DNA of 64,000 nt. It comes from a virus. The notes below the pieces were generated by a model. The model had not been told where the DNA came from and searched no databases. It worked only from the letters and a program-made list of their open reading frames with translations. Location of the stretch: positions 1 to 64,000 of IMG/VR virus record IMGVR_UViG_3300045988_164919; one strand, 5' to 3'. A program made the position numbers and the translations under genes. Below, piece by piece: positions 10,276-60,645 of this stretch (the stretch's first letter is position 1; each line of letters starts with the position of its first letter).

Positions 10276-10304
10276 AATTTATGTCCCTTTCTTTATTTAT
10301 ATTA

Positions 10305-10345
10305 TATTAAAAAATTTTTTGAAATGCAAATCAAATTTTCGTAAT
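10305..10345 (-). promoter_or_regulatory. copy of recurrent promoter motif
   Basis: atttatattatattaaaaaattttttgaaatgcaaatcaaattttc. Confidence 0.4.
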
Positions 10346-41505: not shown

Positions 41506-41640
41506 AAGTCCCTTGTGTCTACCATTCCACCACACCGGCAAATAAACTATATTAATTAAATCAAGGCTCAATTTTGAAAAATAATATAATTCATTTTAGG
41601 TGAACTTTCAAAAGTAAATTTGCTGCATGAGCCTTACGCC

Positions 41641-41715
41641 TGGCACCGGCTCTCAGAGTCGAACTGAGACTTGCTGATTTAGAGTCAGCTGAGCTAACCG
41701 TTACCCAAAGCCGGA
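41641..41715 (-). tRNA. suppressor tRNA with anticodon CUA, decoding UAG
   Basis: Reverse complement TCCGGCTTTGGGTAACGGTTAGCTCAGCTGACTCTAAATCAGCAAGTCTCAGTTCGACTCTGAGAGCCGGTGCCA. Anticodon stem GCTGA/TCAGC, loop CTCTAAA (anticodon CUA), T-arm CTCAG-TTCGACT-CTGAG, 4-nt variable loop, G73, CCA encoded, T1.T72 mismatch. Confidence 0.7.
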
Positions 41716-41831
41716 ATATATAATTACAAGACAGTTTAATAAAGTATCTTCTTATGAACCAAAAACATATGATTATCTTTAATAAAAATTTGCTGAAACT
41801 GTCTTAGAGAAATTGTCCTAACTTCTCTTTA

Positions 41832-41870
41832 TTTTGTAAATATATTATACTAAATAATTTTTTTAAAATC
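41832..41870 (-). promoter_or_regulatory. copy of recurrent promoter motif upstream of the suppressor tRNA
   Basis: taaatatattatactaaataatttttttaaaatcaaattattc. Confidence 0.4.
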
Positions 41871-43200
41871 AAATTATTCAGTAGAATATATTTACAAAAA
41901 TTAATATATCCAATAGAAATAAACTACACCATAGCCACTAACCATTTGTTGGTCGCCTCTATGCCTACCCACGCCACTAAGTACTTCAGCTTACCTCGTT
42001 CATTAGCTATTGGAATATATTAAATTTTTGACCTACCATTAAACTTATAATACCCACCAATAGGAAGTAAATATACAGTTTTTAACAATAGGATTTTAAT
42101 TCTATAATCTAACAAAATAAATAAATAACTCTACCTATTATATGTCCTTTTCGCGAGTCCACTACGTCTCATTTTCCACGCCTTTATATGAGAGACTACC
42201 AAGGATCTTATTTCCGCACTTGGTAATGGCTTTTTGATATGTGAGCCACAAACATCCCTATTCAGCTTATTTATAGTGGAGAGCTGGCTGGTTTAGCGTA
42301 TTGTTCCACTACCTAATTAACCAAGATTAGGACGCTAATCAAATATCTGATACGTATCAGTACGGTTTCCAGATATATCATTTCACCAGACAACAGGCGA
42401 GTCAACCTTATTTGATTAGATTATGTAAGAACCCTACAGCCATAGGAGCAGGTTCCGCAGAGGCCTCTAACGATGTGGGATTGGCTACCCAATGAGGTTA
42501 ATGTGCAAGCCACCGCCTATATTAGCATCTACATAATTCATTTCAAATAAATCATTTAATGATTTATTTTTAACAGGAAAGGAAATCGTAAGTTATTAAA
42601 TAATAACTTAATTACAATTATACTACGGACCTTCGCCCTACTGGTTAATAATCTTCATTTTATTAGGTAAGTAAGGAAACAAGTCTGAGCTATGAATAGC
42701 GACTTCATAACTTCTTGCCCCGGCCTAAGCCAAATCTCACAGAGGACTGACTACCTCTATCTTTCACCGACCATTCAGAATAGTATTACCAATAATTTTT
42801 ACTAAATTAATATCATACTGTCTTGGCAAATTTCGGCTACTTGACCCTTGACCTTCTCTTATAGTAGATTACGCCACATCAATTGCCAACTTCCTTATTG
42901 GTATTTCCTTGGTTTGGCAAAGTTACCAGCCTTACCCTAACAAGGATTCGGCATTGCTGTTAACAATGCTGTCTATTATGGAAGCGAGAAGAACAGGACC
43001 TTAAATGCGATTATCCCAGCACAATCTCCCCGTAGCCGCATCCTTTGATGCGTGAATCTAATGTATCACTACAAAAGATTTAGAAATAATTTCAAAGTAT
43101 CCTTTGAATATTCCATTCTACAATCTCCGCCAGAGTAGGTCGATTTCTCAGCCTTATGGTGTTAAGTCTGCACTGAGTTGTACTATAACCGTAATTAAAT
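41870..43200 (-). ncRNA. candidate large structured noncoding RNA (about 1.3 kb, class unknown)
   Basis: No ORF of 60 aa or more in any frame over about 1.5 kb; GC is markedly higher than the genome; bounded by promoter motifs at 43225-43250 and 41832-41870; many local hairpins; the 12-mer caccatagccac (41927-41938) repeats the 3-prime-terminal element of the tRNA-Leu intron (40783-40794). Confidence 0.3.
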
Positions 43201-43224
43201 TATTATTTAATTTTTAAAGTTCAT

Positions 43225-43370: not shown

Positions 43371-43445
43371 TGGCACTGGTGGCTGGATTTGAACCAACGA
43401 ATACAGGAGTCAAAGTCCTGTGCCTTACCGCTTGGCGACACCAGT
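43371..43445 (-). tRNA. tRNA-Gln (anticodon UUG)
   Basis: Acceptor ACTGGTG/CACCAGT, anticodon stem CAGGA/TCCTG with loop CTTTGAC, T-arm GTTGG-TTCAAAT-CCAGC, G73, CCA encoded. Confidence 0.8.
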
Positions 43446-44545: not shown

Positions 44546-44580
44546 TCTATATATATTATATAAAATTTTTTTTAAATTTT
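44546..44580 (-). promoter_or_regulatory. copy of recurrent promoter motif
   Basis: tatatatattatataaaattttttttaaattttcaaatt. Confidence 0.45.
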
Positions 44581-45455
44581 CAAATTATACAACATAAATA
44601 ATGTGCTAATTCTAATTGATATTCTTGCTTAAAGAAAAAAGGAACTATTGAAAAAATTATAGTGAATACATCATTTCGACCGCTTAATTTAAAGCTGTTA
44701 TAAAATAATGGTAAATATTTTTCACATATTTCATTATAAGTAATTTGATCATTCTTATAATGAAAATTCTTTAAAGGATCATCACTTTTTAATGTTTTAC
44801 ATTTTAAAATATCTTTTGAAGTTACTTCTTCATATAAAGTTATTTTAGCAAATCCATTATAATGTTTATATAAATATGGACAAATAATCGGGCAAGGGTC
44901 ATTGCATAAAAGTTCAAATCTATTTCTTACTTCTATTGGAATTGATTCTAAAAACTTAAAATCTTTTATTTGTCTTCGAGGTAAAACAATTTTATCATAT
45001 TTATTTAAAAGAGACAAATAATCTGTATTTTTATTTGAAGCTATTATACTTCTTTTAATTTTAAATTTAGGATATTTATTTCTTATATATTCTTCTAAAA
45101 TAGAGGAAGAAACTAAAATTGAATTATTTTCATTTTCACATAAGGAAACGATTTTATTACAATATCTATCATACAAGTCTTCTTTTGTTAATAATGGATT
45201 TGTTAAGGTTAAAGCAATTTCTATATTATTTCCATAATAAAAATCAATAATTTCTTTTATTTTTTCTAATGAAGGTTGATAGCCTTGATTGACAGTTCCT
45301 CCATTCCAAATCATATTTGGGAATGTATCGAATATACTCTCTATAGCTACATTAAAATTGAAACATTCTGGAGCTGTCTATTGTAATTCTAAAAGAGTTT
45401 TATATATATTAAATCCAGTATAAAATCCTGGACAATTTAAATTTATTTTTTTCAT
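44580..45455 (-). CDS. paralog family A protein 1 (unknown function; N-terminal NxPGxY, IWNGG, C-terminal Cys cluster); one TAG
   Basis: MKKINLNCPGFYTGF...FPNMIWNGGTV...ELLCNDPCPIICP; paralogous to 46999..47763 and 47774..48622. Confidence 0.5.
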
Positions 45456-45462
45456 ATTTAAA

Positions 45463-46233
45463 TTATATAATATTTTTTACTTTTTATCAAATATAAAATT
45501 TTGAATAATTTGTATTCTCCATTTTTTGAATTAACTAATTTTGATATTTTGTGTTAGTAGGAGCATTTAAATAAAAATTTTTTATTTCTGAAATTTTATT
45601 TAAAAGTTCATTTCTTTTTACTATAAAATCAAAATTACTGTAATTATTAAAATTATTTTTTATATCTAAAATATATGGTTTATACATTCCTAGCTATAAA
45701 CTTTGTTTATAACTTTTTGTTTTATAATATTCAATTATTATTATTAGATCAATAAAAGATTTATAAATTAATTTATAATAATTTTTTAATTTATAATAAT
45801 TTTCTCGTAATCCAGTCTAAAATAATCTATTACTTTCATTAATTAATTGAGAATAAATGACTGGTAAATTTTCTTTAACTATATCTTCATTAATTTTTTT
45901 TATTTCTAAAGTAAATTCATTATCACTTAAATAATGATAAGGGAATAACCATCTATAATAACTATAGTTATTATTATAAAATAAATTATAAATAAAATGT
46001 TCTCCTGTATAAATCCGCCTTGAAGGATTCCAATTTATAATATTAAATTTTTTCATAAAATTATTAGACTATTCCTATGGAATTAAATTTAAATCAAAAT
46101 TTGAAATTTTTTTTAATTCTTTTTCCATATTTATAAAAGAAGAATAGATTTCAATAATATCTATATCACTTGTGTTATTATTTATTCCATGCTGGTAAGA
46201 ACCATCGATCAATCCATATAAAAAATAATCCAT
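45463..46233 (-). CDS. nucleotidyltransferase-fold protein (Pol-beta-like minimal NTase motif); several TAGs
   Basis: N-terminal MDYFLYGLIDGSYQHGINNNTSDIDIIEIY (hG[GS]...D[IV]D); in frame with ORF 45817..46056 through TAGs. Confidence 0.3.
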
Positions 46234-46235
46234 AG

Positions 46236-46871
46236 TTACCTCAATAGTATAGTTAAATTTTTTGTATGTTCAATTAATTTTTTTATTTTAAATATTGTTA
46301 AATGAAAAGCCCATTTATCAGGATAATGGTCAGTATCATGTTTATAATAAAATTTTGGTAAATGATAATATTTAGGATATAAGATATTAAATATTTCTTC
46401 ATCTGTTTGAAAATTTATATAAAACTATAATATTGATTTATATAAATTTTTATTTGGCTTTATTATAGCTATTCCGCCACTTAATCGTCCTTTAGATTCC
46501 TAGTTATCATATATTTCATAAAAACTACCATCTGGATAATCAAAAATATTATCAATATTTTCAGCAATTAAAATATCAGCATCTATAAAACAAATTTTTT
46601 TGTACTAAGTTAAAGTATAAATAAAAAATTTATTAGCGGTATCTTTATAAAAATTAGAATCTCCACAAAAATAAATTGGCTATTCTATTATTTTATAATT
46701 TATATTATTTTTTTTTAAAATTTTAAAATAAATATCTGATACATTATTAGTAGTTAATAGTAAAAATGGATATTTACTATTAACTTTTTTTAATGAAAAA
46801 TATAAGGCACAAGCACATTTAATATATTTATCAGTTGTTGCAAGTGTTACAAAGCAGTATTTGTCGTTCAT
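46236..46871 (-). CDS. glycosyltransferase family 8-like (about 4 TAGs)
   Basis: CFVTLATTDKYIKCACALYFSLKK...FLLLTT and DxD segment ICFIDADILI. Confidence 0.45.
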
Positions 46872-46998
46872 CAGTGACTCCTAAAATATCTGTTACACAA
46901 TGTTCAATAAAATCATATTGGTATTCTGGTAATAATAAATATCGAGCATAAGTACATATATTATCAATATAATTTAAAGAACGTCCCTCTAATTTATA

Positions 46999-47763
46999 CT
47001 ATTCAATACCAAGAGGATAATACAAATTATAAATATTATCTAATGTTACTGTATTCTTATAAGCAATAACTTCTGGGCTATTAACACTTTTAACTGCTTT
47101 ACAATTTAATGTATAAGGTTTTCCATAAGATAAAGCATATTCACTATTGATTTTATAATGATTAATACGATTTGGACAATTAGGAATACAAATTGCATTA
47201 CATAATAATTCAATTTTATTTTTTAAATTTAAAGGAATTTGTTTTAAAAAATCTATATTAGAATTTAAATCATAATCTAAACAAATAAATTTATATTGAG
47301 CTTTCTTAATTTCATTTAAACTTTGTTCTAAATTTGTAATTCTTTTAGTGGTTGAAGAAATAAAATTATACTTATTATATTTATTTCTAATATATTCTTC
47401 TAACCCTTCATTATTAATTACAATTTCATTCAATCCATTATTTCCAATAGCTAAAATGAGATTTTCAAAACGACTATTATAATTTTCTTTAGTTAATAAC
47501 TAATTTGTAAAAACTAATCTGACCGCAATATTATAAGAATTATAAAAATTAAAAATTTCCTCAATATCTTTTTTTAAAGCCTAATGAGTTTTAAAATTAG
47601 TAAAAGTTCTGCCGCCTTCCCAAGAACAAAATTGGAAATTTCCATAACAAGCATGAATTGTAATATTTTTATTAAAAATTTCTGGCTATTTATTAAGTTG
47701 TTCAATTGTTAATTTATTTAATTGGTATGTTTCATACATACCTGGTAAATTAAAATTAATCAT
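46999..47763 (-). CDS. paralog family A protein 2 (3 TAGs)
   Basis: MINFNLPGMYETYQ...EEYIRNKY...ELLCNAICIPNCPNRINHY. Confidence 0.5.
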
Positions 47764-47773
47764 TACTTATATT

Positions 47774-48622
47774 TTATCTCCTTATAAATAATTCTTGAAA
47801 GGCATATTCTTTAAATTCTGGTTTAATAAAATAATTAATTAAAAATAGACCGTATTCATTTTCATTGTTAGAGAAATAATCTATTAAAAAATTAGTGATA
47901 CCCATAGGGATATAAATATCTTTAATTTCTTTAATCGTTATATATTGTTTATTATTTATAGAATTTTTACAATTACAAAATGTAGGTTCAAATGTATAAT
48001 TTAATATATTATTATTTTCTACTATTGGACATTGAAAATAATTTTTACATTTTGGATTACAAAGATTATTAACTGGAATTATAATATTTTCTTTATTATT
48101 AATTTCATTTAAATATTGCTGTGAAGTTTTAAACTCGTTAGGGATTATTATATATAATGGATTTAAATTTTGATGAAAATTATTTATAATATCGGGAGTA
48201 AGAGGATATAAGATATTAGCATTTTTAGAAATAACATATTTCAAATTAGGAAATTTGTTATTTATATAATTTAATAAATCTAAATTACTAATTTCAAAAA
48301 TGCAATTATTTGGTAATAATTTTAAAATTACATTACTCATTACATCATAGAAATCTGATTTTTCTAATAAAATATTAGAAAAATCTAACCACAAAGGTAA
48401 ATTACTTTGCTTAATTATTAATTCTATATTAGGATACAATAAAGTATCACCAACCATGTTATTTAATCCTCCATTCCAAATATTATAAGGGAATGTCCCT
48501 CTAATATAGGAAAAAACTATGTTTTTATCAAGAAGCCAATTAGTATGGCTTCTTGATAAATTAATAAATTTATCATTTACAGTATGAAAATAGTAAAAAT
48601 CAGGTAAGGTAAATTTAATCAA
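47774..48622 (-). CDS. paralog family A protein 3 (no TAG)
   Basis: MIKFTLPDFYYF...FPYNIWNGG...NLCNPKCKNYFQCP; RBS AGGAGAATAAAATTG. Confidence 0.5.
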   Translation of the reverse strand: MIKFTLPDFYYFHTVNDKFINLSRSHTNWLLDKNIVFSYIRGTFPYNIWNGGLNNMVGDTLLYPNIELIIKQSNLPLWLDFSNILLEKSDFYDVMSNVILKLLPNNCIFEISNLDLLNYINNKFPNLKYVISKNANILYPLTPDIINNFHQNLNPLYIIIPNEFKTSQQYLNEINNKENIIIPVNNLCNPKCKNYFQCPIVENNNILNYTFEPTFCNCKNSINNKQYITIKEIKDIYIPMGITNFLIDYFSNNENEYGLFLINYFIKPEFKEYAFQELFIRR

Positions 48623-48874
48623 TTTTATTCTCCTATAGAATATAGCTAATTTGTTAATTTATTTAATTCTTTTGAATAATCTATATTTAAATCTTTTAGT
48701 CGTAAATCCTAATTCTATAATAAATTTGCTAAGGTATAAATTATTTTTTTATTGACTTCTGGATTTGGTTCTTCTAAAGTAACCATATTATTGTATATAA
48801 CAAATAATAAATCCATATATCCCTTATTTTCTTTTATAATATTATTTGTAATTTCTTTTAAAATATTATCTAAA

Positions 48875-50245
48875 TTATCCATTTAAATCATACCCCAATT
48901 CTATAGCTATGTTTTCTATTACTTTTGGTAATATTTTTTGATCTTTCGCACTTTTCAAAACTCCAGTTTCAAAATATAATTTAAATAAATAATTATATTT
49001 TTCTTGAAATAAATTACAAACTGATAAACAAGGGATAGAAAAATCACCATAAGTTTCTATCTAAGCTCCCAAACATCCTTTAATACAGACATCTCTACAC
49101 CAGCATTCTAAACATCTTGGAGCATAAACAGGGTTAAAAGATTTCATTCCTATATAAGCTGTGGCATTATCACTTATTAAATCAATTATCTCTGTTTTTT
49201 CATCATTTATTTTAAAATGTCCACCAATTAAATGATTATAACAAGTACGATGACAAGGAACGATAGCTAAATCTCCAACCCTTATATGAACAGTAGACTA
49301 CAATGCACAGCTTATTCGGTTATGTCTGTCTTCTTTATCTGATAAATTCATTAATCGTATAGGATCTCCATTGTGCTCATTAAATGTAGGAGTATTATTA
49401 GCCCCATCCCCTTTAAACATTGCATAAGCCATAGTATTAATATCATTATTGCAATCATTCAATCTATCTTCAAAGATATGTTTTAAGAATTTTTTATAAT
49501 TCTCTATAGATTCTTGAGTCCAATTATTATTTCGAACTTCTAACATATAAGGAGTTTTCTACCATGAATTGTATTCTTTTAATTTCTTTTTAAACCAATC
49601 ATAAGTTTTAATGGCTTTATCAACATTTTGGCTAGAAATCATAGGATGGAAGCCATCATTATTTTCTGTAGCAAATTCAAATAATTTATTAAAATATTCA
49701 TCATTTAAATCTTTATGTTCTCTAAATTCAGTGCTATACGGCCCATCAGTAGAAAATGAAAAATGAATTTCTACATTTATATCTTTCATCTTTTGGATAT
49801 ATTTTTTTATTTTTATTACTTTTTCATTATCAGAAATAAAACTACCATTAGTAGGTATTACTAGTTTACCTTTTTCTTTTATTCTATAAGCAAATTCATA
49901 CCATTTTTTTAAATATGGGAAAAATACATCTAGTATTTCAAAAATTAATCCATCATAAAATAGGTCTCCGGCAAATAATGACCACTCTAAAGGTTTTATT
50001 TGTTTTTTATCAAAATAATCTAATAATAATTTTAAATTATCTAATATCTAAGAATTAGAAAAATGTTCTGGATATAATTCTTTGCCATAATTAGTTATAT
50101 AACAATAATCACATTTTTGATTACAGTCTTGTCTTATAATTAATTCTAATATTTCATTTTCCATCTTTTTTAATTCATGATTAAAAATAAAATTCTAAAA
50201 TAGAATATTTTCTTCCTATTGGAAATCAATAGACGTTGTTATCAT
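48875..50245 (-). CDS. radical SAM/SPASM enzyme number 2 (peptide-maturase/anSME-like); about 6 TAGs
   Basis: RQDCNQKCDYCY (CxxxCxxC); hand-translated C-terminal SPASM ...PCHRTCYNH...RCLECWCRDVCIKGCLGA; strong RBS GGAGGA before ATG 50243-50245. Confidence 0.6.
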
Positions 50246-51678
50246 TATTTTTCCTCCAAAACTTCTTCAATAATTCCATTACAATATCTTCTTAAAAATC
50301 CACTATCTCTAAAGAAATAAGAACCAGTACTGATTAAACTATTAAAAAAACAAGAATGTATAGGTACTAATAATAATGCTGCTTTCATTAAAAATTTATC
50401 GTCATTAAATTTTTGACTTATCTAATGCACTTCTCGTAAATTACATAATAAAGAAACAATCTAATTATATACATAAAAAAAACTAGATACAGATAAAGTT
50501 TCAAATAAAAAACAACAATTTTTTATATCTTCATCTTTATCTTTCAATGGATTTATATAATTATGATGATTTGCGGCAAATTGCTTAATAATCCCAATTT
50601 TATCATTAGTATTAATATATTCTGGATTAGTATCATAAAGAGAACTCTAACAATTTACTAATGTTCCATCATATAAAAGTTTTAAGCTTCCTGTTTTTTC
50701 TCCGCAATATAAGAATGGAGTTAAGTTTCTATTATAATTCTTTAATTCTTTATTAGAGAATGCTAAAATTTTATCAAGAGCTTCATCTAAATTAGAACAT
50801 TCCAAATTTTTTAATAAAAATTTTTTTGCTTTTCGAGGTAAACACAATAATCCTTCAATAGAGTCTTTATCTGGATTATTAATTTCTGGATAATGTTCTC
50901 CAATTGATTTACAAATTTTTATAAAATTACTCCAATTAATACCATCAATACTAGAAGTATTAATAGGTAATTCGCTAGAGAAATTTATAGTATTTTTGAT
51001 AAAAACAGATTTATTTAGATTTAAATTAGTTAAATATTGAATTTTTTCATTAGCCTAAATAAAATACTATTCTATTTCTTTGTAATTATTATTAAAATGA
51101 TTTATGAGTTCATTACTAATAACTCCATGAGTATTAAGAGCAATAGTAATATTATTAAAATGAATTGTATTTAAAGTTTCTATTAAATATTTTAAATTAT
51201 TATATACTACTTTAGAATTAGCTCTTCTTACATTATCAGTACTATAATCTCCATCATAAGAAAACTAAATACAAATAAATGAATGTTTTTTAGTTAAATT
51301 ATCAAAAGTTTTTAAAAAATCAATTATTTTATCAGTATTAGCCATACCATTAGTAGAAGTAAAAAATTCATTAATATTGGGACATAATTCAAAAAAATCT
51401 TTTAAATTTTTAGTAAAATGTTCTAATACTAATGTAGGTTCTTGACCCCAAAAACTTATTTTATGGATATTTAATGGATCAACTTCTAATTTTTTCATAA
51501 CATTTTTAATATTCTATAAATAACTTCCATCTTTAAGAGCCTTTATAGTCTATTCTTGTAACTATTTACTATATTCATTTACAGCCTAAGCTGAATGACA
51601 ATATTTACAATTTAAATTACATCCACAAGCTCCAATAATAGATAATTCTTCTATTGAAAAATCCGATATATATTTCAT
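50239..51678 (-). CDS. radical SAM/SPASM enzyme number 3; many TAGs
   Basis: MKYISDFSIEELSIIGACGCNLNCKYCH (CxxxCxxC), WGQEPTL, downstream Cys clusters; RBS AAAGGAGAAAAAGGA. Confidence 0.5.
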
Positions 51679-51698
51679 TCCTTTTTCTCCTTTAAATG

Positions 51699-52214
51699 TT
51701 AAGTGTGCCTAGAACCGTAATGACTAGAGCATCCATGAGATGAACACCAGGTTTGATTAACCCCTGACCAATAGGAAGAATGATAACCTGAACCATCATG
51801 AGAAGAATTATAAGAAGTATCCCATCCTGCTCCATAATCAGAACTATCCCAACTACTATTATATCCACTACCTCTATGGCTAGCATTATAACTCGCATCA
51901 TGAGCGCAAGTATCATTTATGCTTCTAATTGTAGTAGTAAATCTATTAAAAATAATAGGACTAATTAAATCTCCTGCCGAAGGAGGATTTTCACTAATAT
52001 TTGCTCTTGAACCAACATAACTGCTACTGGAAAAAGATTCTATATACTTATTTAAATTCTGAGCTAATTGAGCCATAGCTTGTGTTGACTATCCTCCAGG
52101 AGTCGCTTGAAAATCACTCTAACTAGGGAAAAATTTTTTTCTTGCGGTATTTAAATTAGTAAAAATAGTCTAAATATCACTCCAATTTATTTTAGAGTTT
52201 GAACTAATTGCCAT
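51699..52214 (-). CDS. precursor-like peptide/protein with a Ser/Gly/Tyr/His/Trp-rich repetitive C-terminus, immediately upstream of radical SAM number 3 (3 TAGs in the N-terminal leader)
   Basis: ...CAHDASYNASHRGSGYNSSWDSSDYGAGWDTSYNSSHDGSGYHSSYWSGVNQTWCSSHGCSSHYGSRHT; good RBS GAGGAGGAAAAAT before ATG 52212-52214; alternative internal start at 52076. Confidence 0.4.
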
Positions 52215-54195
52215 ATTTTTCCTCCTCGCATTTTATAAAATCAATATACTCTTTGTTAATAAATTGTTTAATTAGTTTATTATTATCAAGTATATGATTT
52301 CCTTTATTAAATAGACTATTTAAATTAAATAATACAGTATTATTTAATTTAATAAAATCTTCTTTTTTTATTTTATTTAATAAATCTTTATAAAACAATG
52401 ATAACTTATTAAACAAAATTTTATCATTAATTAAAATTAAACAAATAAGACTTAAACAAATTGCTTCTTCTTGTTTTATATCTTTTAGATATTCTTTGTC
52501 TTTATCAGTTACTTCTTCTATTATAGATAAATTTACAATAATTTTATTAAAAATATGTTCGAAAATAAAATGATTATTTTCATATTTTTTATTTGTTAAA
52601 TATTGTCTATAAAAATAAGTAAAAACAATTAATTCATTTATTGTCATATATAAAAAATTAATATCTTTGCCCATACTTTCATTATTTCTATTATATACGT
52701 AAATAGGCTATTCTAAGAAGGGAATTGCACCATTATAAAAATCAAAAATCTATAATGATAAAAATCTATCTTCATTATAAATAAATTTGCCATAAGAAAA
52801 ATTATTTTTTATAAAAAATTCTCTATTATATAAATAACTATGAGCGTCATGGATAAATTCATTTTTATCATAGGTCTATCCATTTACAATTCCATAATTA
52901 TTATTTTCAGCATATATATATAAATTTTCTAAAGCCTTATTATCATAAAAATAATCATCACTATCTAAACAGAAAAAATACTTATTGAAGCTATTATTAA
53001 TTCCTAAAGTCCTAGCTGACGCAGGGCCTGATTTAGTTTTCTAAGTATCTAATAATATTATATTGTATATATTATTATAAGTTTTATAAAATTCATATAC
53101 ATATTTTTTATCTGGAGAATTATCACTAATTAAATAGATTACACAATCATTAATAATACTTTGTTTAAAGACAGAATCTAAACATTTCTAAAAATATATT
53201 TTATTTATTGTATAAAAAGGAATTATAATATCAATTTTTCCTTCGTTGCGCTTTCTAAATGTCCTCATTTTATCAGGAGCATACCAAGAATCAACGTTAT
53301 TCCAAGATTTCTTTTTTGAAAAATCCTAAAAATTAGAAAAATCAACAAATTTTTTATAATATTCATTATAATTTGTTAAGAATAATTCTTTTTCTGTTTT
53401 AGTATATTCATCATAAGTTTTAGTCGATTGATCCCAATCAACCACATCTCCTGGCCGACAATATTTACATATATTTTTTTCACATAATTTTAAATTCTAT
53501 AAATCTTGTAAATTTGTTTTTTCTGTTAGTTTTATAAAATCTTTATTTTCTATTAATGGAATTTGTTTAAAAAAATAATTACAAAAATTATTTATGTGTG
53601 CCCCAAACTGACAAAAATATATTTTAAAATCTTTTAATGTAAAGCAAGGAATCCTATTTGGACAACTATATATACGAGTTTTATTATCTTGTTTACCTAA
53701 AGGGTCAACCAATGTCTAATCAAAGAAAAATCTATCATTTAAATATGAGATATTTTTATTATTGCTAAAATCTTTGTAGTCTTGATTAGGATATTTAGAA
53801 ATACTTATATGTATATTTAATTCTTCTAATTTTTTTAATTTTTTTGTATCATAATTATTTAAAATTATACCATTAGTTAATATCTTTATTTCTATCTCTG
53901 GGAGAATATTTCTAGCTATCTAACATAATTCTATTAAATTAGGATGTAAAAATGGTTCTCCCCCTAATAGCATTAAAACTTTAATAGAAGGCAAAGTTTT
54001 TTTTACTAATTTTAGCTAATTTTGAAAATCTTCGTAAGTAATAAAAAATGGAGAAGCCAAAGGAGAAAAATGATTACAATTATTGCATTGTAGGTTGCAA
54101 TGGTCTACTAAATGAATTTCTAATTCAAATCCATCAAAAACTGTAGGCCAAAATGCTCTAGTAGGTCCATCTCTATACTAATTTATTTTATTCAC
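52192..54195 (-). CDS. radical SAM (number 4) fused or translationally coupled to a family-2 glycosyltransferase; start uncertain, about 8 TAGs
   Basis: VDHCNLQCNNCNHF (CxxxCxxC) and LLGGEPFL, then Cys clusters CPNRIPC...CQFGAHINNFC...CEKNICKYC, then GT2 motifs KIDIIIPFYT...CLDSDD. I hand-verified a continuous frame across 53212-53497 containing only a TAG; it then continues into ORF 52204..52674. Confidence 0.35.
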
Positions 54196-54269
54196 CTTCT
54201 TTTTTTATTATTATATAAAAAAAATGCTTGAAAAGCAAATTTTAAGAACAAGCTTTTCAAGCATTGTTG

Positions 54270-54593
54270 TTAAACAAAATGAATAATTAAATTATTAATT
54301 TGGACTCCATTATCATTCATAATAAAAATTTCATCTACTTTATTATAATTATTATATTCCCAAATTAGTTCTTCATTATCATTATAAACTTTTATATTTT
54401 CAATTTTATCTAATTCCATAAGCCATCCTAACATTTGTTTTATATTATAATTAGATGGCACATTTCCTCTAGCTGCTTCTAATAAAAACATTGTTTTTGG
54501 CTAATCATCAGAAGCAGGATGATAAGCTCGTTCTGTAACAAAACTTAAATTATCAATAGGTTTATCAACTAAATTATTAATTATAATTTTCAT
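54270..54593 (-). CDS. hypothetical protein (one TAG)
   Basis: ATG at 54591-54593 is in frame with ORF 54270..54491. Confidence 0.3.
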
Positions 54594-54617
54594 TTTTCTT
54601 TCTCCTTTTATTTTTTA

Positions 54618-55052
54618 TTAGCCCCAAGCAACTGGAATAGGTTTCCATGAATCACTTGATGATGTACGATATTTCAATACTCCATTACTAGAAATATCTA
54701 CCCAAATAAGAGCAGATGAAGAAGAAGGAGCAGTAGTCCCAATATAAATCTAATTGTTTGACGTAAAACCAACAGTAGGAGTTATAGTTGGATTGCTATT
54801 ATCCACATAATTTTTAGTAGCTATATCATTACCAGATATTGGGACATAGTTATTCGCCATCTAAATTTTACCATTGGCGCTCATTACATTTACTTCATCT
54901 TTATAAAGACGCTATTCAAAATCATCGTCTATAATTACTAATGATTGTTCTTCATTTAACTAATTATCCTCTTTTAATTGTCTATATAAAGCTCTAGTAG
55001 GGATTTGATTGATAGAAAGAGTATTTAAATTTGTACTAGTTTTTGAAGCCAT
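54618..55052 (-). CDS. small fiber-associated protein with conserved C-terminal module (about 5 TAGs)
   Basis: C-terminal ...ALIWVDISSNGVLKYRTSSSDSWKPIPVAWG; RBS GGAGGTATACAAATG. Confidence 0.4.
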
Positions 55053-55177
55053 TTGTATACCTCCTTCTTACTTTTTCTTTCTTATATAAATAAAAAATAG
55101 GACATAATAATTTAATTATTATGTCCTATTCAAGAAAGGGGGTGAGTTAAATGCTGTAAATAAAAAATTTATTTCTT

Positions 55178-55215
55178 ATTTACATTTATATTATATAAAA
55201 TAATTTTTTAAAAAT
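55178..55215 (-). promoter_or_regulatory. copy of recurrent promoter motif
   Basis: tatattatataaaataattttttaaaaatcaaattttat. Confidence 0.4.
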
Positions 55216-55230
55216 CAAATTTTATAATGT

Positions 55231-58038
55231 CTAACTCCATGTGTCTGCGGCAGTTTTTGCCCATACGCCTTTTATCGGTTTCCAAATATTAGCATCAGTT
55301 TTTACAAACACTTGTGCTAATTCTTTCCAAGGACTGACCTCCTTAGTTATACTATATGGAGTAACAGGCAATGTAAAATCTTTAGTCCATTTACATCCTT
55401 TAGTTATTTTTAATTCAGCGATATATCCTTTATAATAATATCCTGATGAATGATTATCGCTAGCACTTCCCGCTAATGTACCTAATGTTAGTCCCACATA
55501 GCTAGTATTAGTATTTGTTAGAGTACCTTTTAATTTTCCATCAAGGAAACAATAAGTTGTTGTTCCTGACAAGCACATTGCTATATGAGTCCATGTATTA
55601 AGTGCAGTTGTACCTGCATTAAGACCAGGCCCGCTATTAGAAGGAGTCGCTGCAACAAAGGTTTGGCTAGATAATCTATGCATATACATTCCGTGGCCTT
55701 TACTTGATATTAAAGTAAAGGGTGTAGGATAGCTACTATTATTATTAGAAGTCTAATAGAACCATCCTTCAAGCGTTATATCTCCTGTATATGTAGATGG
55801 AAAAGGCATATACATATATGAAGAACTACCATCAAACTTTAATGAATTTTTACCAAAATGAGTTTGTTCATTAGATAATGTAACATTATTATTTGTAATC
55901 GTTAATGTTAAATTACCTTGACTTTTTAAACTATCACCATTAAAATAAACAAGACTAGAAGGATCATTCATTAAATTACTTGTAAATACTCCACTTGCTA
56001 AATTAGTTTTAAATACAGATGTTTTTAAATCATATAAGCCTAATACTTTATCTGAAACTCGCTATACTGGAATAAAATCATGAGCAAGAGTAGAACCATT
56101 ATATATTTTAAACCTATATACTTTCATACTGGCTAAATTACCATAAGCTGCTCCTGCTTTATTAATACAACCAATATACATGGATAAACCAGTAGTAATA
56201 GTACCAGCTACAGTAATAGTAGAACCGTCAGGCTTAGTATATACTTTATTCTATAATTTAATATTAATTTTTGATGTATTTTTAATACCAGAATTATATA
56301 CAGTAGAGCCATATTTAAATTCGGTGCCGCTATTGCTATCAATAGCTATTGTATCAATACGGAAGAAATTCTACGTCTCACCCGTGCCGCCAGAGGAATC
56401 ATTGCCACGCACGCCAAATAAATTATAATATGGACTACCTGATTGACCATTCAATACTTCAAATGTAATATCAAAACCAGTGTTACTATCAACAATAGCT
56501 CCTGTATCAATATATTGAGTACCTGTAAATTGTAAATATTCAATAGGACTATAAGTAGAAGGAAGAGTCTAAGGAATTTTTACTAAAGTATTTTCAGGAC
56601 TGGCTTTTATAACAGTGATACGTATATAACCATTACCTGCATGTCCTGTTTCCCTTGTACCTGTTGGAGAAGTAAATGCAGCATTACCTGCTAATGTAGT
56701 AGCATTAGTTAAATAATAAGATGAATCCAATAAACAGCCAGAAGGATAATAAGAGGCTGAGCTAGAAGTGTACATGTAGCCGGAGCCACCACCTCCAATG
56801 CCTACAGCGCCGCCGCCGCCATACCAGCCGCCACCACCTCCTGAACCATGCCAAGAGTTTGAACCACCATTACAATTTCCACCTTGTCCGAAGTTTCCTG
56901 CAGTAGCGTAATTAGAGTTAGTAGAACTTACTGCCCCGCCCTTAGTTTGGCTGCCGCCGCCGCCATACCAGCTGCCACTATTAGATGAATCTTGATTATT
57001 ATATGTTTTGCCTGATATTCCTCCACCAGCAAAACCAGTAGAGCTAACATAGCCGCTAGAACCACTGCCACCACCAGCGACTAGAACTCTAGCATATAAA
57101 GAATCGGAAGCAACACGAATATCTGTGCCGCCGCCACCACTTCCTCGACTATTAAGCGAAGCGGCAGAACCACCTCCATTAAATCCTCCAGCAGTAGTTG
57201 CTCCATTTGAATTATAAGTAGTTCCACCAAGGCCCTATCCACCGGCATATAAATATAAATTAGTCTTTCTATTTAAAGTTATAATTCCTTTACTATAGCC
57301 GCCTTTGCCCCCGGGGTATGAAGCATTTCCATTACCATTGCCACCCTATGCGCCCCAGCATTCTAGCTGATACTATCCTTTTGGAAGAGTAATTGATTTA
57401 GCAGAACCGCTATAAGGACAATTTAATATATCGCCAGTCTATATTTTTGTAGGAGTTGTAACAGTTAAATCATATTTATTAGGAGCTTCATATTGAATAG
57501 TTGTATTGCCAGCAAAATATTTAATATTAGTATCACACCATTCCTGTGTAGGTTCATTACCTGCTCCGAATGCAGCGGTTAAGTCAATAAGCATTACATC
57601 ATCAATATAAGCTATTGTATTTGAAGCCATCTCTTCAAAATCAAATCTGAATTGAGCTGTCTAATTATCATTCCAATTAGAACGCACATTACGCCAGCTT
57701 AATCGCTACCATTGGTTTAATTTAGTTTTATCTACTTTAGCAATACCTACTAATGGTTCTGCTATTGGCCAATAGCATTGCATTTTAGAACACACATTAG
57801 AAGTTTCATAAAAATAAACACTTATATAATATATATGATTTTTTCTAATAGCATATGTATCAAAAGTCACAATTGATGACTCAGAACTTGAAGTAGATGT
57901 AACTTTTAAGCTATAAGAGCCGGAATGTTTAGGAGAGGTGGCGTAACTAACTGAGCAAGCTGAATTAGCAGTCCAACCTGTCTTTTCAAAACTTGGATTA
58001 GTTAATAAATTAGTTAAAGTAATCGTTTGTTTTGCCAA
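55231..58038 (-). CDS. giant fiber protein with N-terminal CBM-like jelly roll, Gly-rich central region and two C-terminal ConA/LamG-like domains (about 10 TAGs)
   Basis: ORFs 57706..58038, 57439..57630, 56569..56775, 55753..55971 and 55231..55689 all share one frame; Gly-rich GGKGGYSKG...GGGSGSSGYVSSTGFAGGG...GGGGWYGGGG; NPSFEKTGW CBM-like start. Confidence 0.5.
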
Positions 58039-58051
58039 TTAAATCAACTCC

Positions 58052-58492
58052 TTAATCTGCATCATATTGTATCCAAATATCGCCTATACTGCCATCTGAT
58101 GCTGTTGGTTCTGCAGTAGATATTAATATTGGGCGTAAATATTTTACTGATGCAGTAATTGGAGTAGTGCCATTCCAAGTCATTGGTGTAGTTATTCCTG
58201 TTGGCTATTCGACTGTTACTGACGGAGACCAAGTATTAGTAGAAGTTAAGGTTAGATATTTAGTACTCGTAGTAGAATAACCTCTATTACGGAAATCTCT
58301 ATAATAAAATTTTATAGTGTTACTACCAGTAGGGATTTCAGTTAGCATATAAATATCTGAATTAAATACTACAATAATATCTTTACCGCTATCCCAAGCA
58401 TCTTTAATTTCTTTATAAGTAGTAATATCTTTAGTTGCGATAAATACACCGCCTGCATTTTCAATCTATTCTATAAGTTTAGGTTTAGACAT
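58052..58492 (-). CDS. hypothetical structural protein (3 TAGs)
   Basis: ATG at 58490-58492 to TAA at 58052-58054, in frame. Confidence 0.3.
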
Positions 58493-58505
58493 TTAAAAAC
58501 CTCCT

Positions 58506-59492
58506 TTAATTATTAAATTTAGGAATTGCTATATAATAATAAGTATAACCGTTATTATTGAATATACTAGTATAATAACTACTAGCAGCAGTAATAATAA
58601 CTGATTTTGAATTCCAAGTAAAACTAACATAAGTGCCATTATTGTTAGGAAATGGGTATTTCATTCCTTGTATGCCACACATATAATTTTGAGCAGTACC
58701 AGTGTTAGTTTGCACCATAAATAGCATCAAATAAGCAGGTTCAAAATTAAAATTAAGAGTTTTTGTTAAAGCATTATTTCCTATATAACTTCCAACATAA
58801 GCTCCTTTGATACTTATATCGCCAGTCATTCCATTTACTGATCTAACCAAATGAGATGTAAGATATCCAACATCATTAGTTAATTGACTTACTTTAGAAA
58901 TTTTGTTATTCTATATCTACTAATCAACATATTTTTTATCAGTTAAGTCTCCAGTATTAGATGGTGTATAAGTACTATTCATAGTTATTTTGCCTGTTGT
59001 CATAATATTATTTTTTGAGGTTAAAAGCATTTCATTCATATCTTTTGGCAATTCACTTATTTTATTATCAATAGCCTAAATAGTATCATTTTTTATAGTC
59101 TATAAGTCATTTATCACATCTAATAAATAGTCTTCTGGTTCTATTCCTCGAATATTAAGAACAATAATACTATCATTAGCTGATGCCGCAAAATCTAATA
59201 ACTTAATTTTATTATCTTGAATTGTATAGTTTATATTTTTAGTCATTAATATACCATTAAAAAATATATTTAAATCTTCAGGATTTTCAACAGTAAAAGG
59301 AAAAGTAAATGTTGTATCTCCTTCTTGTGCAATGAAAGAATATTTATAAGGAAGGTCATCTTCTTTATTTACAATGTATATTTCATCATTGTTTACTTTT
59401 CCTTGTTTCACCATTTGATTATAAATTTTCCTAGATGGAACTTTATTTATAACTAAAGAATCTAATAATTTTTCATTGTTTTTTATTTCCAT
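58506..59492 (-). CDS. tail fiber protein with GDxxxKKYVD fiber repeat (ORFs 59100..59492 and 58506..58850 joined; about 6 TAGs)
   Basis: Hand-verified read-through ...INDL*TIKNDTI*AIDNKISELPKDMNEMLLTSKNN...; repeat TMNSTYTPSNTGDLTDKKYVD. Confidence 0.45.
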
Positions 59493-59507
59493 CTATTATT
59501 CTCCTTA

Positions 59508-60500: not shown

Positions 60501-60527
60501 TATATTTCCTCCTTAAACAAAAATATA

Positions 60528-60570
60528 GGGAAATAAATATCTTGAAAATAGTTCAAGATATTTATTTCCC
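60528..60570. terminator. perfect 19-bp-stem hairpin (bidirectional terminator)
   Basis: gggaaataaatatcttgaa-aatag-ttcaagatatttatttccc, U-rich on both sides. Confidence 0.6.
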
Positions 60571-60645
60571 TATATTAAATATCTTTCTCAATCATCTATT
60601 TTCAAAAGAGTAAAGATTATAATAAATAAGTTATCAATTTCAAAC

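What the first reader, a model, noticed from the sequence alone, without database searches (positions are those of the whole stretch)
41641..41715. Cognate amber-suppressor tRNA (anticodon CUA) encoded in the tRNA cluster
The tRNA at 41641-41715 folds canonically: 7-bp acceptor stem with a T1.T72 mismatch, anticodon stem GCTGA/TCAGC with loop CTCTAAA (anticodon CUA), T-arm CTCAG-TTCGACT-CTGAG, and an encoded CCA. It is the expected decoder for the recoded TAG codons. It has a short variable loop, U35 and G73. A weak 1-72 pair plus G73 plus U35 are known identity elements for GlnRS, and Gln is the usual assignment in table-15 phages, so Gln is plausible but not established here. A copy of the recurrent promoter motif lies about 115 nt upstream.
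Basis: seen in the sequence. Interest (0 to 1): 0.8.

Follow-up and report, generated by a model that had tools for sequence, protein, structure and literature searches.

The report
Phage amber-suppressor tRNA reading TAG as glutamine
A large uncultivated phage carries its own tRNA that most likely reads the stop codon TAG as glutamine, which it needs because about 146 of its codons are in-frame TAGs; this is a sound new example of a known trick, with an unusual conserved mismatch at the top of the tRNA.

Summary
A 75-nt tRNA with anticodon CUA lies at 41641-41715 on the minus strand. It has a U1·U72 mismatch, G73, an encoded CCA and a 4-nt variable loop, and a recurrent sigma-70-like promoter sits 129-157 nt upstream.

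TAG is recoded in this window: 146 in-frame TAGs in 37 genes, many inside catalytic domains. Three independent tests say TAG means Gln:
- Conserved homologue columns have Q opposite TAG (PhoH DEAQN 9/9; radical-SAM site 77/79).
- Between orthologous genes, 12 of 25 TAG-to-sense swaps involve CAA or CAG (p = 2e-15).
- CAG is depleted in the TAG-containing genes.

The tRNA belongs to a covarying family on 80-200 kb viral contigs. Position 1:72 stays unpaired in 16 of 17 aligned sequences. Among phage tRNAs in the fetched loci, its combination of features occurs only in tRNA-Gln and tRNA-Trp.

A close relative has swapped this gene for a GIY-YIG endonuclease plus a different, non-canonical CUA tRNA.

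Verdict: a functional amber suppressor decoding TAG as Gln, charged by host enzymes. Charging and suppression are inferred, not tested, and the route is unresolved. It is a new member of a known kind (code-15 phages), of moderate interest.

The parts
41641..41715 (-). Amber-suppressor tRNA gene: anticodon CUA, U1·U72 mismatch, G73, encoded CCA, 4-nt variable loop, U13·G22.
   Evidence: ARAGORN. Rfam tRNA model, 49.2 bits. Cloverleaf is the minimum-free-energy fold. Family covariation. Feature comparison across isoacceptor classes.
41844..41872 (-). Sigma-70-like promoter TTGATT-N17-TATAAT, one copy of the recurrent extended motif. Predicted transcription start near 41837.
   Evidence: Promoter scan. 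Alignment of motif copies and window-wide count: 17 minus-strand matches against 1 on the plus strand.
41716..41840 (-). Predicted 5' leader of about 120 nt with two hairpins (41828-41806, and the long-range stem AGACAGUUU/AAACUGUCU). Presumed to be removed by RNase P.
   Evidence: Fold z-score -2.39. Conserved in L051 apart from a 24-nt indel. RNase P processing is inferred.
18380..18382 (-). In-frame TAG (codon 343) of the PhoH-like gene, at the Q of the invariant DEAQN motif.
   Evidence: Residue-level alignment to PDB 3b85. Homologues have Q in 9 of 9. Coordinate checked.
22035..22037 (-). In-frame TAG (codon 140) of the radical-SAM gene 21156-22454, at a column that is Q in 77 of 79 homologues.
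36535..40083 (-). Densely recoded late gene (1182 aa, fibre-like) immediately downstream of the tRNA cluster: 16 TAG, 28 CAA, 0 CAG.
   Evidence: Swaps with the L001 orthologue include 7 TAG-to-CAA exchanges.
44580..63184 (-). Densely recoded block upstream of the tRNA cluster: radical-SAM/SPASM, glycosyltransferase, glycine-rich and fibre-like genes, with up to 12 TAGs per gene.
9067..15608 (-). TAG-free gene block compatible with the standard code (DNA ligase, topoisomerase II subunits): 2181 codons, 0 TAG where 27.6 are expected.
   Evidence: P = 1e-12.
43371..43445 (-). The phage's ordinary tRNA-Gln(UUG): A1-U72, G73, 5-nt variable loop, E. coli-like D arm. It is not the recent parent of the suppressor.

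Best explanation
This is a functional phage-encoded amber-suppressor tRNA that inserts glutamine at UAG.

Proposed mechanism:
1. Host RNA polymerase transcribes it from its own sigma-70-type promoter as a precursor with a leader of about 120 nt. This is inferred from the promoter match.
2. The precursor is trimmed to a 75-nt tRNA whose CCA end is already encoded (inferred).
3. Host enzymes charge it, because no synthetase gene was found in the window (inferred). Two routes are possible. Either GlnRS charges it directly, helped by G73, G10, U35, A37 and an already open 1:72 position. Or a non-discriminating GluRS charges it with Glu and GatCAB converts that to Gln, since GatCAB also reads the first base pair.
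4. The CUA anticodon then competes with release factor 1 at the 146 in-frame TAG codons of the window.

These TAGs occur at low density in replication and lysis genes and at high density in late genes. The tRNA is therefore needed from early in infection, and demand for it rises later.

Shown here: the tRNA, its promoter motif, the recoding, the Gln meaning of TAG, and the family-wide conservation of the mismatch. Inferred: transcription timing, processing, the charging enzyme, and competition with RF1.
For: tRNA calls and cloverleaf:
- ARAGORN, Rfam and the fold all agree.

Recoding:
- ORF lengths increase when TAG is read as sense.
- There are 146 in-frame TAGs in 37 genes, inside Pfam domains.

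TAG means Gln:
- In PhoH the TAG sits on the Q of DEAQN (PDB 3b85), and homologues have Q in 9 of 9.
- In the radical-SAM protein, Q is found in 77 of 79 homologues at one site and 39 of 79 at another.
- Between orthologues, 12 of 25 TAG-to-sense swaps involve Gln codons, 8 of them CAA, which is two changes away. The background share of Gln codons is 1.7%, p = 2e-15.
- TAG-containing genes have 223 CAA, 25 CAG and 146 TAG. TAG-free genes have 114 CAA and 85 CAG. Fisher p = 1.5e-15.
- GIY-YIG genes read YIG-TAG-(A/S)...R, where I recall the family motif having Q. That motif is from memory and was not checked here.

tRNA family and identity features:
- 14 distinct U1·U72/G73 sequences were found, plus variants.
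- Covariation is strong, while 1:72 is unpaired in 16 of 17 sequences.
- The combination G73 + non-G-C 1:72 + 4-nt variable loop + U13·G22 is present in Gln 7/11, Trp 2/4 and CUA 12/23, and absent from the 17 other classes.
- U35 fits Gln and not Trp (identity sets in PMC9976931).

Selection for the function:
- Every close relative keeps a CUA tRNA in this position, even when the gene itself has been replaced.

Precedent:
- Phage CUA suppressors with TAG read as Gln and charging by host synthetases are described in the literature.
Against: - There is no experimental evidence here for expression, charging or suppression.
- The acceptor pairs 2:71 and 3:70 are C-G, not the G-C of the E. coli Gln identity set. 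A36 and A38 also differ from G36 and U38.
- Whole-sequence similarity does not single out Gln. Pairwise scores are uninformative. In the profile search Gln has only the best median score, and Thr and Trp give the best single hits.
- The Rfam score of 49 bits is below the 62-67 bits of four of the five other tRNAs in the window, and the fold z-score is not significant.
- 4 of the 25 codon swaps involve Lys codons.
- The host is known only roughly, as probably Clostridia, so the charging route is open.
- A 1:72 mismatch might weaken EF-Tu binding, as it does in the bacterial initiator tRNA (my own knowledge).
- Only 64 kb of a genome of roughly 140-190 kb was examined. A phage synthetase, a release factor or a second suppressor could lie outside the window.
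Confidence: 0.85

Rival explanations
1. Same suppressor function, but Gln is attached indirectly. A non-discriminating host GluRS first makes Glu-tRNA(CUA), using the 4-nt variable loop (missing nucleotide 47) and the U13·G22 D helix. GatCAB then amidates it, accepting it because position 1:72 is not G-C. This differs from the best explanation only in the charging route.
For: - The host signal points to Clostridia/Firmicutes, a group in which the indirect route is common (my own knowledge).
- The family has a 4-nt variable loop throughout and U13·G22 in 12 of 17 sequences. A missing nucleotide 47 and an augmented D helix are GluRS determinants (PMC9976931).
- GatCAB and GluRS2 discriminate by U1-A72 against G1-C72.
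- All 11 CCA-encoding phage tRNA-Gln genes scored have a non-G-C 1:72 pair and G73.
Against: - GluRS recognition depends strongly on a modified U34 and on position 36. The suppressor has C34 and A36.
- GatCAB was tested on U1-A72, not on a U·U mismatch.
- The host genome is unknown, and some Clostridia do have GlnRS (my own recollection, unverified).
Confidence: 0.3
2. The tRNA suppresses TAG but inserts another amino acid, such as Trp, Lys, Glu, Asn or Tyr.
For: - G73 with a weak 1:72 pair is also the Trp pattern (and the Asn pattern in E. coli).
- 4 of the 25 TAG swaps involve Lys codons.
- Other viral contigs carry 84-nt CUA tRNAs with a long variable arm and A73. This suggests that TAG is not read as Gln in every phage.
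Against: - Conserved columns are Q, not W, K, E or N.
- CAA, two changes away from TAG, is the commonest swap partner. No Trp or Asn codon appears among the partners, and Tyr and Glu appear once each.
- CAG specifically is depleted where TAG is used.
- The tRNA lacks the A73 of the Lys and Tyr identity sets, the long variable arm of bacterial tRNA-Tyr (my own knowledge), C35 (Trp) and G1-C72 (Glu).
Confidence: 0.06
3. It is a pyrrolysine tRNA, as ARAGORN's label suggests.
For: Only the CUA anticodon and ARAGORN's default label.
Against: - The structure is a standard cloverleaf: 5-bp anticodon stem, 8-nt D loop containing GG, and T loop UUCGACU. From my own knowledge, tRNA-Pyl has a 6-bp anticodon stem, a 3-nt variable loop and a tiny D loop.
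- No PylS or PylBCD was found among the window proteins scanned.
- TAG aligns with Gln, not Lys-like positions.
Confidence: 0.01
4. The gene is a decaying or non-functional tRNA-like element, and TAG is read by some other means, such as another suppressor elsewhere in the genome or a host factor.
For: - The unpaired 1:72 and the lower Rfam score could be read as signs of decay.
- Only 64 kb of the genome was seen.
- Some related phages carry two CUA tRNAs (L077, L080).
Against: - The mismatch is conserved in 16 of 17 diverged family members, while the stems covary. That is the pattern of purifying selection, not decay.
- The gene is 0-1 nt different in relatives whose flanking DNA is 95-98% identical.
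- It has its own consensus promoter.
- When the gene is lost in L051 and L083, it is replaced by another CUA tRNA.
Confidence: 0.03

Closest known systems
Suppressor tRNA-CUA genes of TAG-to-Gln (genetic code 15) phages: crAss-like, Lak, the Firmicutes-infecting recoded clades of Borges et al., and phAss-1/'Phassvirus' (10.1101/2021.08.26.457843; PMC9523058; PMC10607447).
   Same: - A phage-borne CUA tRNA inside a tRNA cluster of a low-GC phage (29.6% GC here).
- In-frame TAG concentrated in structural and late genes, where homologues have Gln.
- No phage synthetase nearby, so host charging is assumed.
- A subset of genes is compatible with the standard code.
   Different: - There is no close DNA relative among deposited phages.
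- TAG also interrupts primase, helicase, a RecA-like ATPase and PhoH, so early genes are not all free of TAG.
- The tRNA belongs to a family with a conserved U1·U72 (or U·C) mismatch, which I did not find described in the paper library.
- In close relatives the gene is exchanged as a cassette together with a homing endonuclease.
E. coli amber suppressors charged with glutamine: supE (tRNA-Gln CUA) and su+7 (tRNA-Trp CUA), plus CUA mutants of the initiator tRNA (PMC9976931; partly my own knowledge).
   Same: - CUA anticodon with U35, G73, G10 and A37.
- A weak or absent 1:72 pair, the acceptor feature that GlnRS exploits.
- The body architecture is shared with the tRNA-Gln and tRNA-Trp classes.
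   Different: - It is a natural, dedicated gene rather than a point mutant.
- 2:71 and 3:70 are C-G instead of G-C.
- It has A38 instead of U38 and a 4-nt variable loop.
- It has a true mismatch rather than U1-A72 or A1-U72.
Phage T4 tRNA gene region with the free-standing GIY-YIG homing endonuclease SegB (my own knowledge, not checked here).
   Same: GIY-YIG (Seg-like) endonuclease genes sit within or beside the tRNA genes of a large phage, and they coincide with allele replacement between relatives (L050, L051, L083).
   Different: Here the exchanged allele is the suppressor that defines the phage's genetic code. The incoming tRNA is unrelated in sequence and has non-canonical D and T loops.
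tRNA-Pyl (pylT).
   Same: CUA anticodon only.
   Different: The structural hallmarks of tRNA-Pyl are absent and no pyl genes were found. See the membership test.

Membership tests
Phage amber-suppressor tRNA of code-15 (TAG = Gln) phages | A cloverleaf tRNA gene with anticodon CUA. | tested here: met
   ARAGORN. Rfam, 49.2 bits. Minimum-free-energy fold is a cloverleaf. Family covariation.
Phage amber-suppressor tRNA of code-15 (TAG = Gln) phages | The genome carries in-frame TAG codons inside conserved protein-coding genes. | tested here: met
   146 in-frame TAGs in 37 genes, inside Toprim, AAA_24, Amidase_2, GT2, radical-SAM and ALK_LTK_GRD domains. ORF lengths increase when TAG is read as sense.
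Phage amber-suppressor tRNA of code-15 (TAG = Gln) phages | TAG positions correspond to Gln in homologues and orthologues. | tested here: met
   Q in 9/9 and 77/79 homologues at conserved columns. 12 of 25 swaps involve CAA or CAG, p = 2e-15. CAG is depleted in TAG-containing genes, p = 1.5e-15.
Phage amber-suppressor tRNA of code-15 (TAG = Gln) phages | The tRNA is expressed, charged with Gln, and suppresses UAG in the infected cell. | not testable with these tools
   Needs tRNA sequencing, acylation assays, a reporter or proteomics.
Phage amber-suppressor tRNA of code-15 (TAG = Gln) phages | The host uses the standard code, so the phage's code differs from its host's. | tested here: inconclusive
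   A TAG-free gene block (P = 1e-12) fits a standard-code host. The host is identified only as probably Clostridia.
Substrate of bacterial GlnRS (E. coli tRNA-Gln identity set, PMC9976931) | Discriminator G73. | tested here: met
   G73 in the window tRNA and in all 17 aligned sequences. In one search, which left positions 1, 72 and 73 free, 16 of 18 cloverleaf-competent hits have G73.
Substrate of bacterial GlnRS (E. coli tRNA-Gln identity set, PMC9976931) | Weak U1-A72 first pair, which GlnRS opens. | tested here: inconclusive
   U1 is present but 72 is U, so there is no pair at all. The position is unpaired in 16 of 17 family members. This is plausibly equivalent or better for GlnRS, but it has not been measured.
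Substrate of bacterial GlnRS (E. coli tRNA-Gln identity set, PMC9976931) | G2-C71 and G3-C70. | tested here: not met
   C2-G71 and C3-G70. The phage's own tRNA-Gln(UUG) also has C2-G71, so the E. coli rule may not carry over to this host.
Substrate of bacterial GlnRS (E. coli tRNA-Gln identity set, PMC9976931) | G10 (the 10-25 pair). | tested here: met
   G10-C25 is invariant in the family.
Substrate of bacterial GlnRS (E. coli tRNA-Gln identity set, PMC9976931) | Anticodon loop U35, G36, A37, U38. | tested here: inconclusive
   U35 and A37 are present. A36 is unavoidable in an amber suppressor. Position 38 is A, not U.
Substrate of the indirect route (ND-GluRS + GatCAB; PMC2811023, PMC9976931) | The first pair is not G1-C72 (U1-A72 in natural substrates), and there is no extra D-loop base. 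| tested here: inconclusive
   There is no G-C at 1:72 and the D loop is 8 nt. However, U·U has not been tested with GatCAB, and C34/A36 may block GluRS.
tRNA-Pyl | Atypical structure (6-bp anticodon stem, 3-nt variable loop, very short D loop without GG; from my own knowledge) together with pylS/pylBCD genes. | tested here: not met
   5-bp anticodon stem, 4-nt variable loop, 8-nt D loop with GG, T loop UUCGACU. No Pyl enzymes among the proteins scanned.
Group I intron in tRNA-Leu(UAA) (neighbouring gene, noticed in passing) | Insertion between anticodon nucleotides 34 and 35, U before the 5' splice site, G at the 3' end of the intron, and an intron-less allele in a relative. | tested here: met
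   Window 41505-40768 is absent from L001, which has an intact gene. The junctions read ...GGGACUU|UUGAC...AGUAAG|AAAAUCC.
Group I intron in tRNA-Leu(UAA) (neighbouring gene, noticed in passing) | A recognisable group I catalytic core. | tested here: not met
   Rfam finds no Intron_gpI match even at E <= 1. The 447-nt ORF inside the insertion may break the model, so this is not decisive.

The most novel reading that the evidence does not exclude
The tRNA represents a phage-specific lineage of suppressors in which a permanently unpaired first position (U1·U72 or U1·C72) plus G73, on a tRNA-Gln/Trp-type body, is a selected way of getting host enzymes to put Gln on a CUA anticodon. In addition, the suppressor gene is a mobile cassette. 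Homing endonucleases swap it between related phages, sometimes for structurally aberrant CUA tRNAs that standard tRNA finders miss. If so, the element that sets the phage's genetic code would itself be horizontally mobile, and part of the 'missing' suppressors in recoded phages would be accounted for.
Probability: 0.35. Interest if true: 0.6.

Novelty: new member of a known kind. Interest (0 to 1): 0.42.

Why it matters
Stop-codon recoding in phages is established, but how a standard-code host comes to charge the phage's suppressor is still unknown. Borges et al. could detect suppressors in only about 40% of TAG-recoded genomes.

This locus gives a clean, well-supported example outside the crAss-like and Lak groups. 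It adds two testable leads:
- A conserved 1:72 mismatch with G73 as a candidate identity signature. Mutating it to U-A or G-C and measuring charging by GlnRS or by GluRS/GatCAB would test this directly.
- A case where a close relative carries a non-canonical CUA tRNA in the same position. ARAGORN misses that tRNA, which shows concretely why suppressors go undetected.

On the practical side, the window must be annotated with translation table 15. Under table 11 most late genes are fragmented.

Tried and rejected
- **Whole-sequence similarity to isoacceptor classes.** Pairwise global alignment was uninformative. An nhmmer profile of the family gave Gln the best median score, but Thr and Trp gave the best single hits. 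Neither was used as evidence. The feature-based test replaced them.
- **blastn of the tRNA against deposited phages.** Only chance-level partial hits. Megablast of the tRNA cluster hit only other tRNAs.
- **Second homologue search.** A chimera of three late-block proteins returned nothing. The late proteins are too divergent and AT-rich for the word index.
- **Pyrrolysine reading of ARAGORN's label.** Rejected on structure and on the absence of pyl genes.
- **Recent anticodon mutant of the phage's own tRNA-Gln(UUG).** Rejected. That tRNA has a different D arm, a 5-nt variable loop and no special similarity to the suppressor.
- **Rfam search for group I or II introns** in the insertions that interrupt tRNA genes in the window and its relatives. 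No hit.
- **Release factor, synthetase or amidotransferase genes in the window.** None among the proteins scanned. Not every small ORF was scanned.
- **Host identification.** It reached only 'probably Clostridia'. The 89-91% identical copies on MAG contigs labelled Mollicutes or Clostridium are probably binned phage DNA.
Full report
**1. The observation**

ARAGORN reports six tRNA genes, all on the minus strand. One of them lies at exactly 41641-41715 and has anticodon CTA. Rfam's tRNA model scores it 49.2 bits against a threshold of 29, with E = 1.7e-7.

Read on the minus strand, the sequence is UCCGGCU-UU-GGGU-AACGGUUA-GCUC-A-GCUGA-CUCUAAA-UCAGC-AAGU-CUCAG-UUCGACU-CUGAG-AGCCGGU-G-CCA. This shows a U1·U72 mismatch above six Watson-Crick acceptor pairs, a D stem with G·U pairs at 11:24 and 13:22, a canonical anticodon arm, a 4-nt variable loop, a canonical T arm, G73 and an encoded CCA. 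The minimum-free-energy fold is this cloverleaf, but the energy z-score is only -1.27, so thermodynamics alone proves nothing. The strand is minus.

**2. The promoter**

A sigma-70-like TTGATT-N17-TATAAT lies at 41872-41844 on the minus strand. It is one copy of an extended motif, TTGAWWTTTAAAAAAA...TATAATATAT. The simpler pattern TTGAWW-N16-18-TATAWT gives 17 minus-strand matches against 1 on the plus strand. Copies lie in front of tRNA-Thr, tRNA-Gln/Tyr and ROOL, and in front of several protein genes.

The -10 element ends 129 nt upstream of the tRNA. The predicted leader of about 120 nt folds into two hairpins with z = -2.39. No terminator-like site separates the suppressor from the downstream tRNA-Leu, which also has its own weaker promoter-like site at 41611-41583.

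**3. Is TAG recoded?**

The window is 29.6% GC, and nearly all genes are on the minus strand. Reading TAG as sense raises the total of stop-to-stop ORFs of 150 aa or more from 12.9k to 20.3k aa, and the longest ORF from 828 to 1202 aa.

With TAA and TGA as the only stops, I count 146 in-frame TAGs in 37 genes covering 11,552 codons. A further 25 genes covering 6,689 codons have none.

TAGs lie inside recognised domains:

| Gene product | Domain | TAG codon(s) |
|---|---|---|
| Primase | Toprim | 263 |
| RecA-like ATPase | AAA_24 | 38 |
| Endolysin | Amidase_2 | 320 |
| PhoH-like | PhoH | 343 |
| Glycosyltransferase | GT2 | 262, 311, 366 |
| Late-block protein | Radical SAM | several |
| Late-block protein | ALK/LTK-type glycine-rich | 137, 146, 183 |

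Density ranges from about 0.3% of codons in replication genes to about 2.4% in late-block genes.

The ligase and topoisomerase II block (9067-15608; 2181 codons) has no TAG where 27.6 are expected (P = 1e-12). So a subset of genes is compatible with the standard code. However, primase and helicase are not, which implies that the suppressor is needed early. That is an inference.

**4. Which amino acid?**

Three independent lines point to Gln.

(i) Conserved columns. In PhoH the TAG aligns with the Q of the invariant DEAQN motif in PDB 3b85, and Q is found in 9 of 9 homologues. In the radical-SAM protein 21156-22454, homologues have Q in 77 of 79 sequences at one TAG and in 39 of 79 at another, where K (25) and E (11) come next. 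Variable sites are variable.

(ii) Orthologue codon swaps with three related viral contigs (L050, L051, L001). Of 25 TAG-to-sense differences, 12 involve Gln codons (8 CAA, 4 CAG), 4 involve Lys, 2 involve Ser, and the rest are singletons. Gln codons make up 1.7% of all substituted codons, giving a binomial p of 2e-15. CAA is two mutations away from TAG, so mutational proximity cannot explain the result.

(iii) Codon usage. TAG-containing genes have 223 CAA, 25 CAG and 146 TAG. TAG-free genes have 114 CAA and 85 CAG. The odds ratio is 6.65 and p = 1.5e-15. TAG has taken the place of CAG. Examples are the gene at 36535 (16 TAG, 28 CAA, 0 CAG) and the gene at 27477 (0, 3, 25).

GIY-YIG genes in the window and in L051 also read YIG-TAG-(A/S)xN...R. 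I recall the family motif having Q at that position, but I did not check it here.

**5. The tRNA beyond this window**

No deposited phage has a similar tRNA. In IMG/VR, identical or 1-nt-different copies sit on contigs of 157.5 and 188.5 kb that are 95-99% identical to the window.

A gapped pattern that fixed only the acceptor end and the anticodon loop found 21 loci, with 14 distinct sequences. Nearly all are on 80-200 kb viral contigs and inside tRNA clusters. Repeating the search with positions 1, 72 and 73 left free gave 18 cloverleaf-competent sequences: 14 with U·U and G73, one with U·C and G73, one with A-U and G73, and two of other types.

I aligned 17 sequences (A1). The cloverleaf is paired in 92.7% of cells, against 68.8% in shuffles and at most 46% when partners are slid by 1-3 columns. 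Seventeen of 21 pairs show changes on both sides. The 1:72 position is unpaired in 16 of 17. G10-C25 is invariant and U13·G22 is present in 12 of 17.

One caveat applies. Pairs 2:71 to 5:68, the CCA end and the anticodon loop were fixed by the search pattern, so their conservation is by construction. Positions 1, 72 and 73 were free.

The mismatch has therefore been kept while the rest of the molecule was rebuilt by compensatory change. That is the signature of selection, not decay.

**6. Which isoacceptor type does it resemble?**

Whole-sequence comparisons are uninformative. A feature test is clear. Among deduplicated, CCA-encoding tRNAs from all fetched phage loci, the combination G73 + non-G-C 1:72 + 4-nt variable loop + U13·G22 occurs in Gln 7/11, Trp 2/4 and CUA 12/23. 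It occurs in none of the 17 other classes. G73 with a weak 1:72 pair occurs in Gln 11/11 and Trp 4/4.

The published identity sets are:
- Bacterial Gln: G73, U1-A72, G2-C71, G3-C70, G10, U34, U35, G36, A37, U38.
- Bacterial Trp: G73, A1-U72, C34, C35, A36.
- Bacterial Glu: G1-C72, U2-A71, missing nucleotide 47.

The suppressor meets G73, G10, U35 and A37. It has an open 1:72 position. It does not meet 2:71, 3:70 or U38. Amber-suppressor derivatives of tRNA-Trp, and initiator tRNA mutated at the central anticodon position, are known to be charged with Gln by E. coli GlnRS.

GatCAB and GluRS2 also use the first pair, U1-A72 against G1-C72. Either charging route is therefore structurally plausible. 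The host is probably a member of the Clostridia. The SLH domain is closest to Clostridia and Ruminococcus MAGs, and the topoisomerase is closest to phages from human faeces and of Firmicutes. This does not decide the route.

**7. The locus is a hot spot for homing endonucleases**

In L051, and in L083 at 97% identity, the window's suppressor is precisely replaced by about 0.9 kb. This insert carries a SegE-like GIY-YIG endonuclease gene and a different 75-nt CUA tRNA.

That second tRNA has:
- a U1·C72 mismatch, G73 and CCA;
- the anticodon loop CUCUAAA;
- a D loop AGCAGCAA without GG;
- a T loop GGCAGCA.

ARAGORN misses it, and Rfam scores it 38.9 bits. The function is thus conserved while the gene is exchanged. 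A non-canonical suppressor escaping a standard finder is the situation Borges et al. suspected.

**8. Comparison with what is known, and verdict**

Phage CUA suppressors, TAG read as Gln (confirmed by proteomics in crAss-like phages), enrichment of TAG in late genes and reliance on host synthetases are all published.

This tRNA is a new member of that kind, from an uncultivated lineage of phages of about 140-190 kb that probably infect Clostridia. What may be new is the conserved 1:72 mismatch and the endonuclease-linked cassette exchange. The literature search found nothing on natural U1·U72 suppressors.

- Confidence that it is a functional suppressor reading TAG as Gln: 0.85.
- Interest: moderate, 0.42.

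Noticed in passing
window 40716-41539 (-): The tRNA-Leu(UAA) gene is split between anticodon nucleotides 34 and 35 by a 738-nt insertion (41505-40768). Relative L001 has the intact gene. The junctions look like group I splice sites (U|...G|), and the insertion carries a 148-aa HTH + weak HNH ORF (40876-41322). Rfam finds no group I core.
   Followed up: partly
L050:15360-15837 and L050:16341-16783 (equivalent to window tRNA-Pro 43795-43871 and tRNA-Tyr 43280-43366): In a 99%-identical relative, tRNA-Pro and tRNA-Tyr are interrupted in the anticodon loop by 479-nt and about 442-nt insertions. These are almost entirely PD-(D/E)XK (PF11645) endonuclease ORFs, which leaves no room for a ribozyme core. 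The Tyr insertion has tRNA-like ends (acceptor strand + T arm + ACCA), and its stop codon is supplied by the 3' exon. How, or whether, these are removed is unexplained.
   Followed up: partly
L051:18700-19619; also L083: A cassette of a GIY-YIG (SegE-like) endonuclease plus a non-canonical CUA tRNA replaces the window's suppressor gene. The replacement tRNA has no GG in the D loop and no T-psi-C sequence in the T loop. ARAGORN misses it, and Rfam scores it 38.9 bits.
   Followed up: yes
window 42608-43201 (-) and 40590-40702 (-): A full-length ROOL RNA (320 bits) and a RAGATH-33 RNA (139 bits) are embedded in the tRNA cluster. Each lies downstream of a copy of the recurrent promoter or of a tRNA.
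   Followed up: no
window 41880-42600 (-): An ORF-free stretch of about 0.7 kb between ROOL and the suppressor's promoter. It is GC-richer (35.8% against 29.6% for the window), 95.7% conserved in L001, and folds with z = -1.88. It has no significant Rfam match (only a weak DUF2800 RNA hit, E = 0.86). It may be another non-coding RNA.
   Followed up: partly
window 22860-32074 (-): A group of TAG-free genes, three of them unusually CAG-rich: an SPFH/flotillin protein (22860-23930), a protein with Major Vault Protein shoulder and repeat domains (27477-29957) and a DUF2828/DUF7788 'RNA-binding' protein (30536-32074). A TAG-free NADAR protein (26680-27123) and phosphoesterases lie among them. The CAG-rich codon usage differs from the rest of the phage.
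   Followed up: no
window 44580-54204 (-): A cluster of heavily TAG-recoded radical-SAM/SPASM-like and glycosyltransferase genes, with up to 12 TAGs per gene. No database homologues were found by the word-index search.
   Followed up: partly
L007, L009, L014, L028, L031, L039 (IMG/VR contigs): 84-nt CUA tRNAs with a long variable arm and A73, which is a Tyr/Leu-type architecture. This suggests that some other phages read TAG as something other than Gln.
   Followed up: no
L077:29-103 and 331-405; L080:7528-7603 and 7812-7886: Some family members carry two tandem CUA tRNAs. In L080 one copy has U1·U72 and the other A1-U72.
   Followed up: no
L050:14017-14752 (abuts the 3' end of tRNA-Thr, window 44439-44441): A 735-nt insertion encoding a GIY-YIG + NUMOD1 endonuclease lies directly next to tRNA-Thr in relatives. 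It is absent from the window.
   Followed up: partly
window 34405-35541 (-): A phage protein with S-layer-homology (SLH) domains. Copies 89-91% identical lie on contigs binned into low-GC MAGs labelled Mollicutes or Clostridium, which are probably mis-binned phage DNA.
   Followed up: partly
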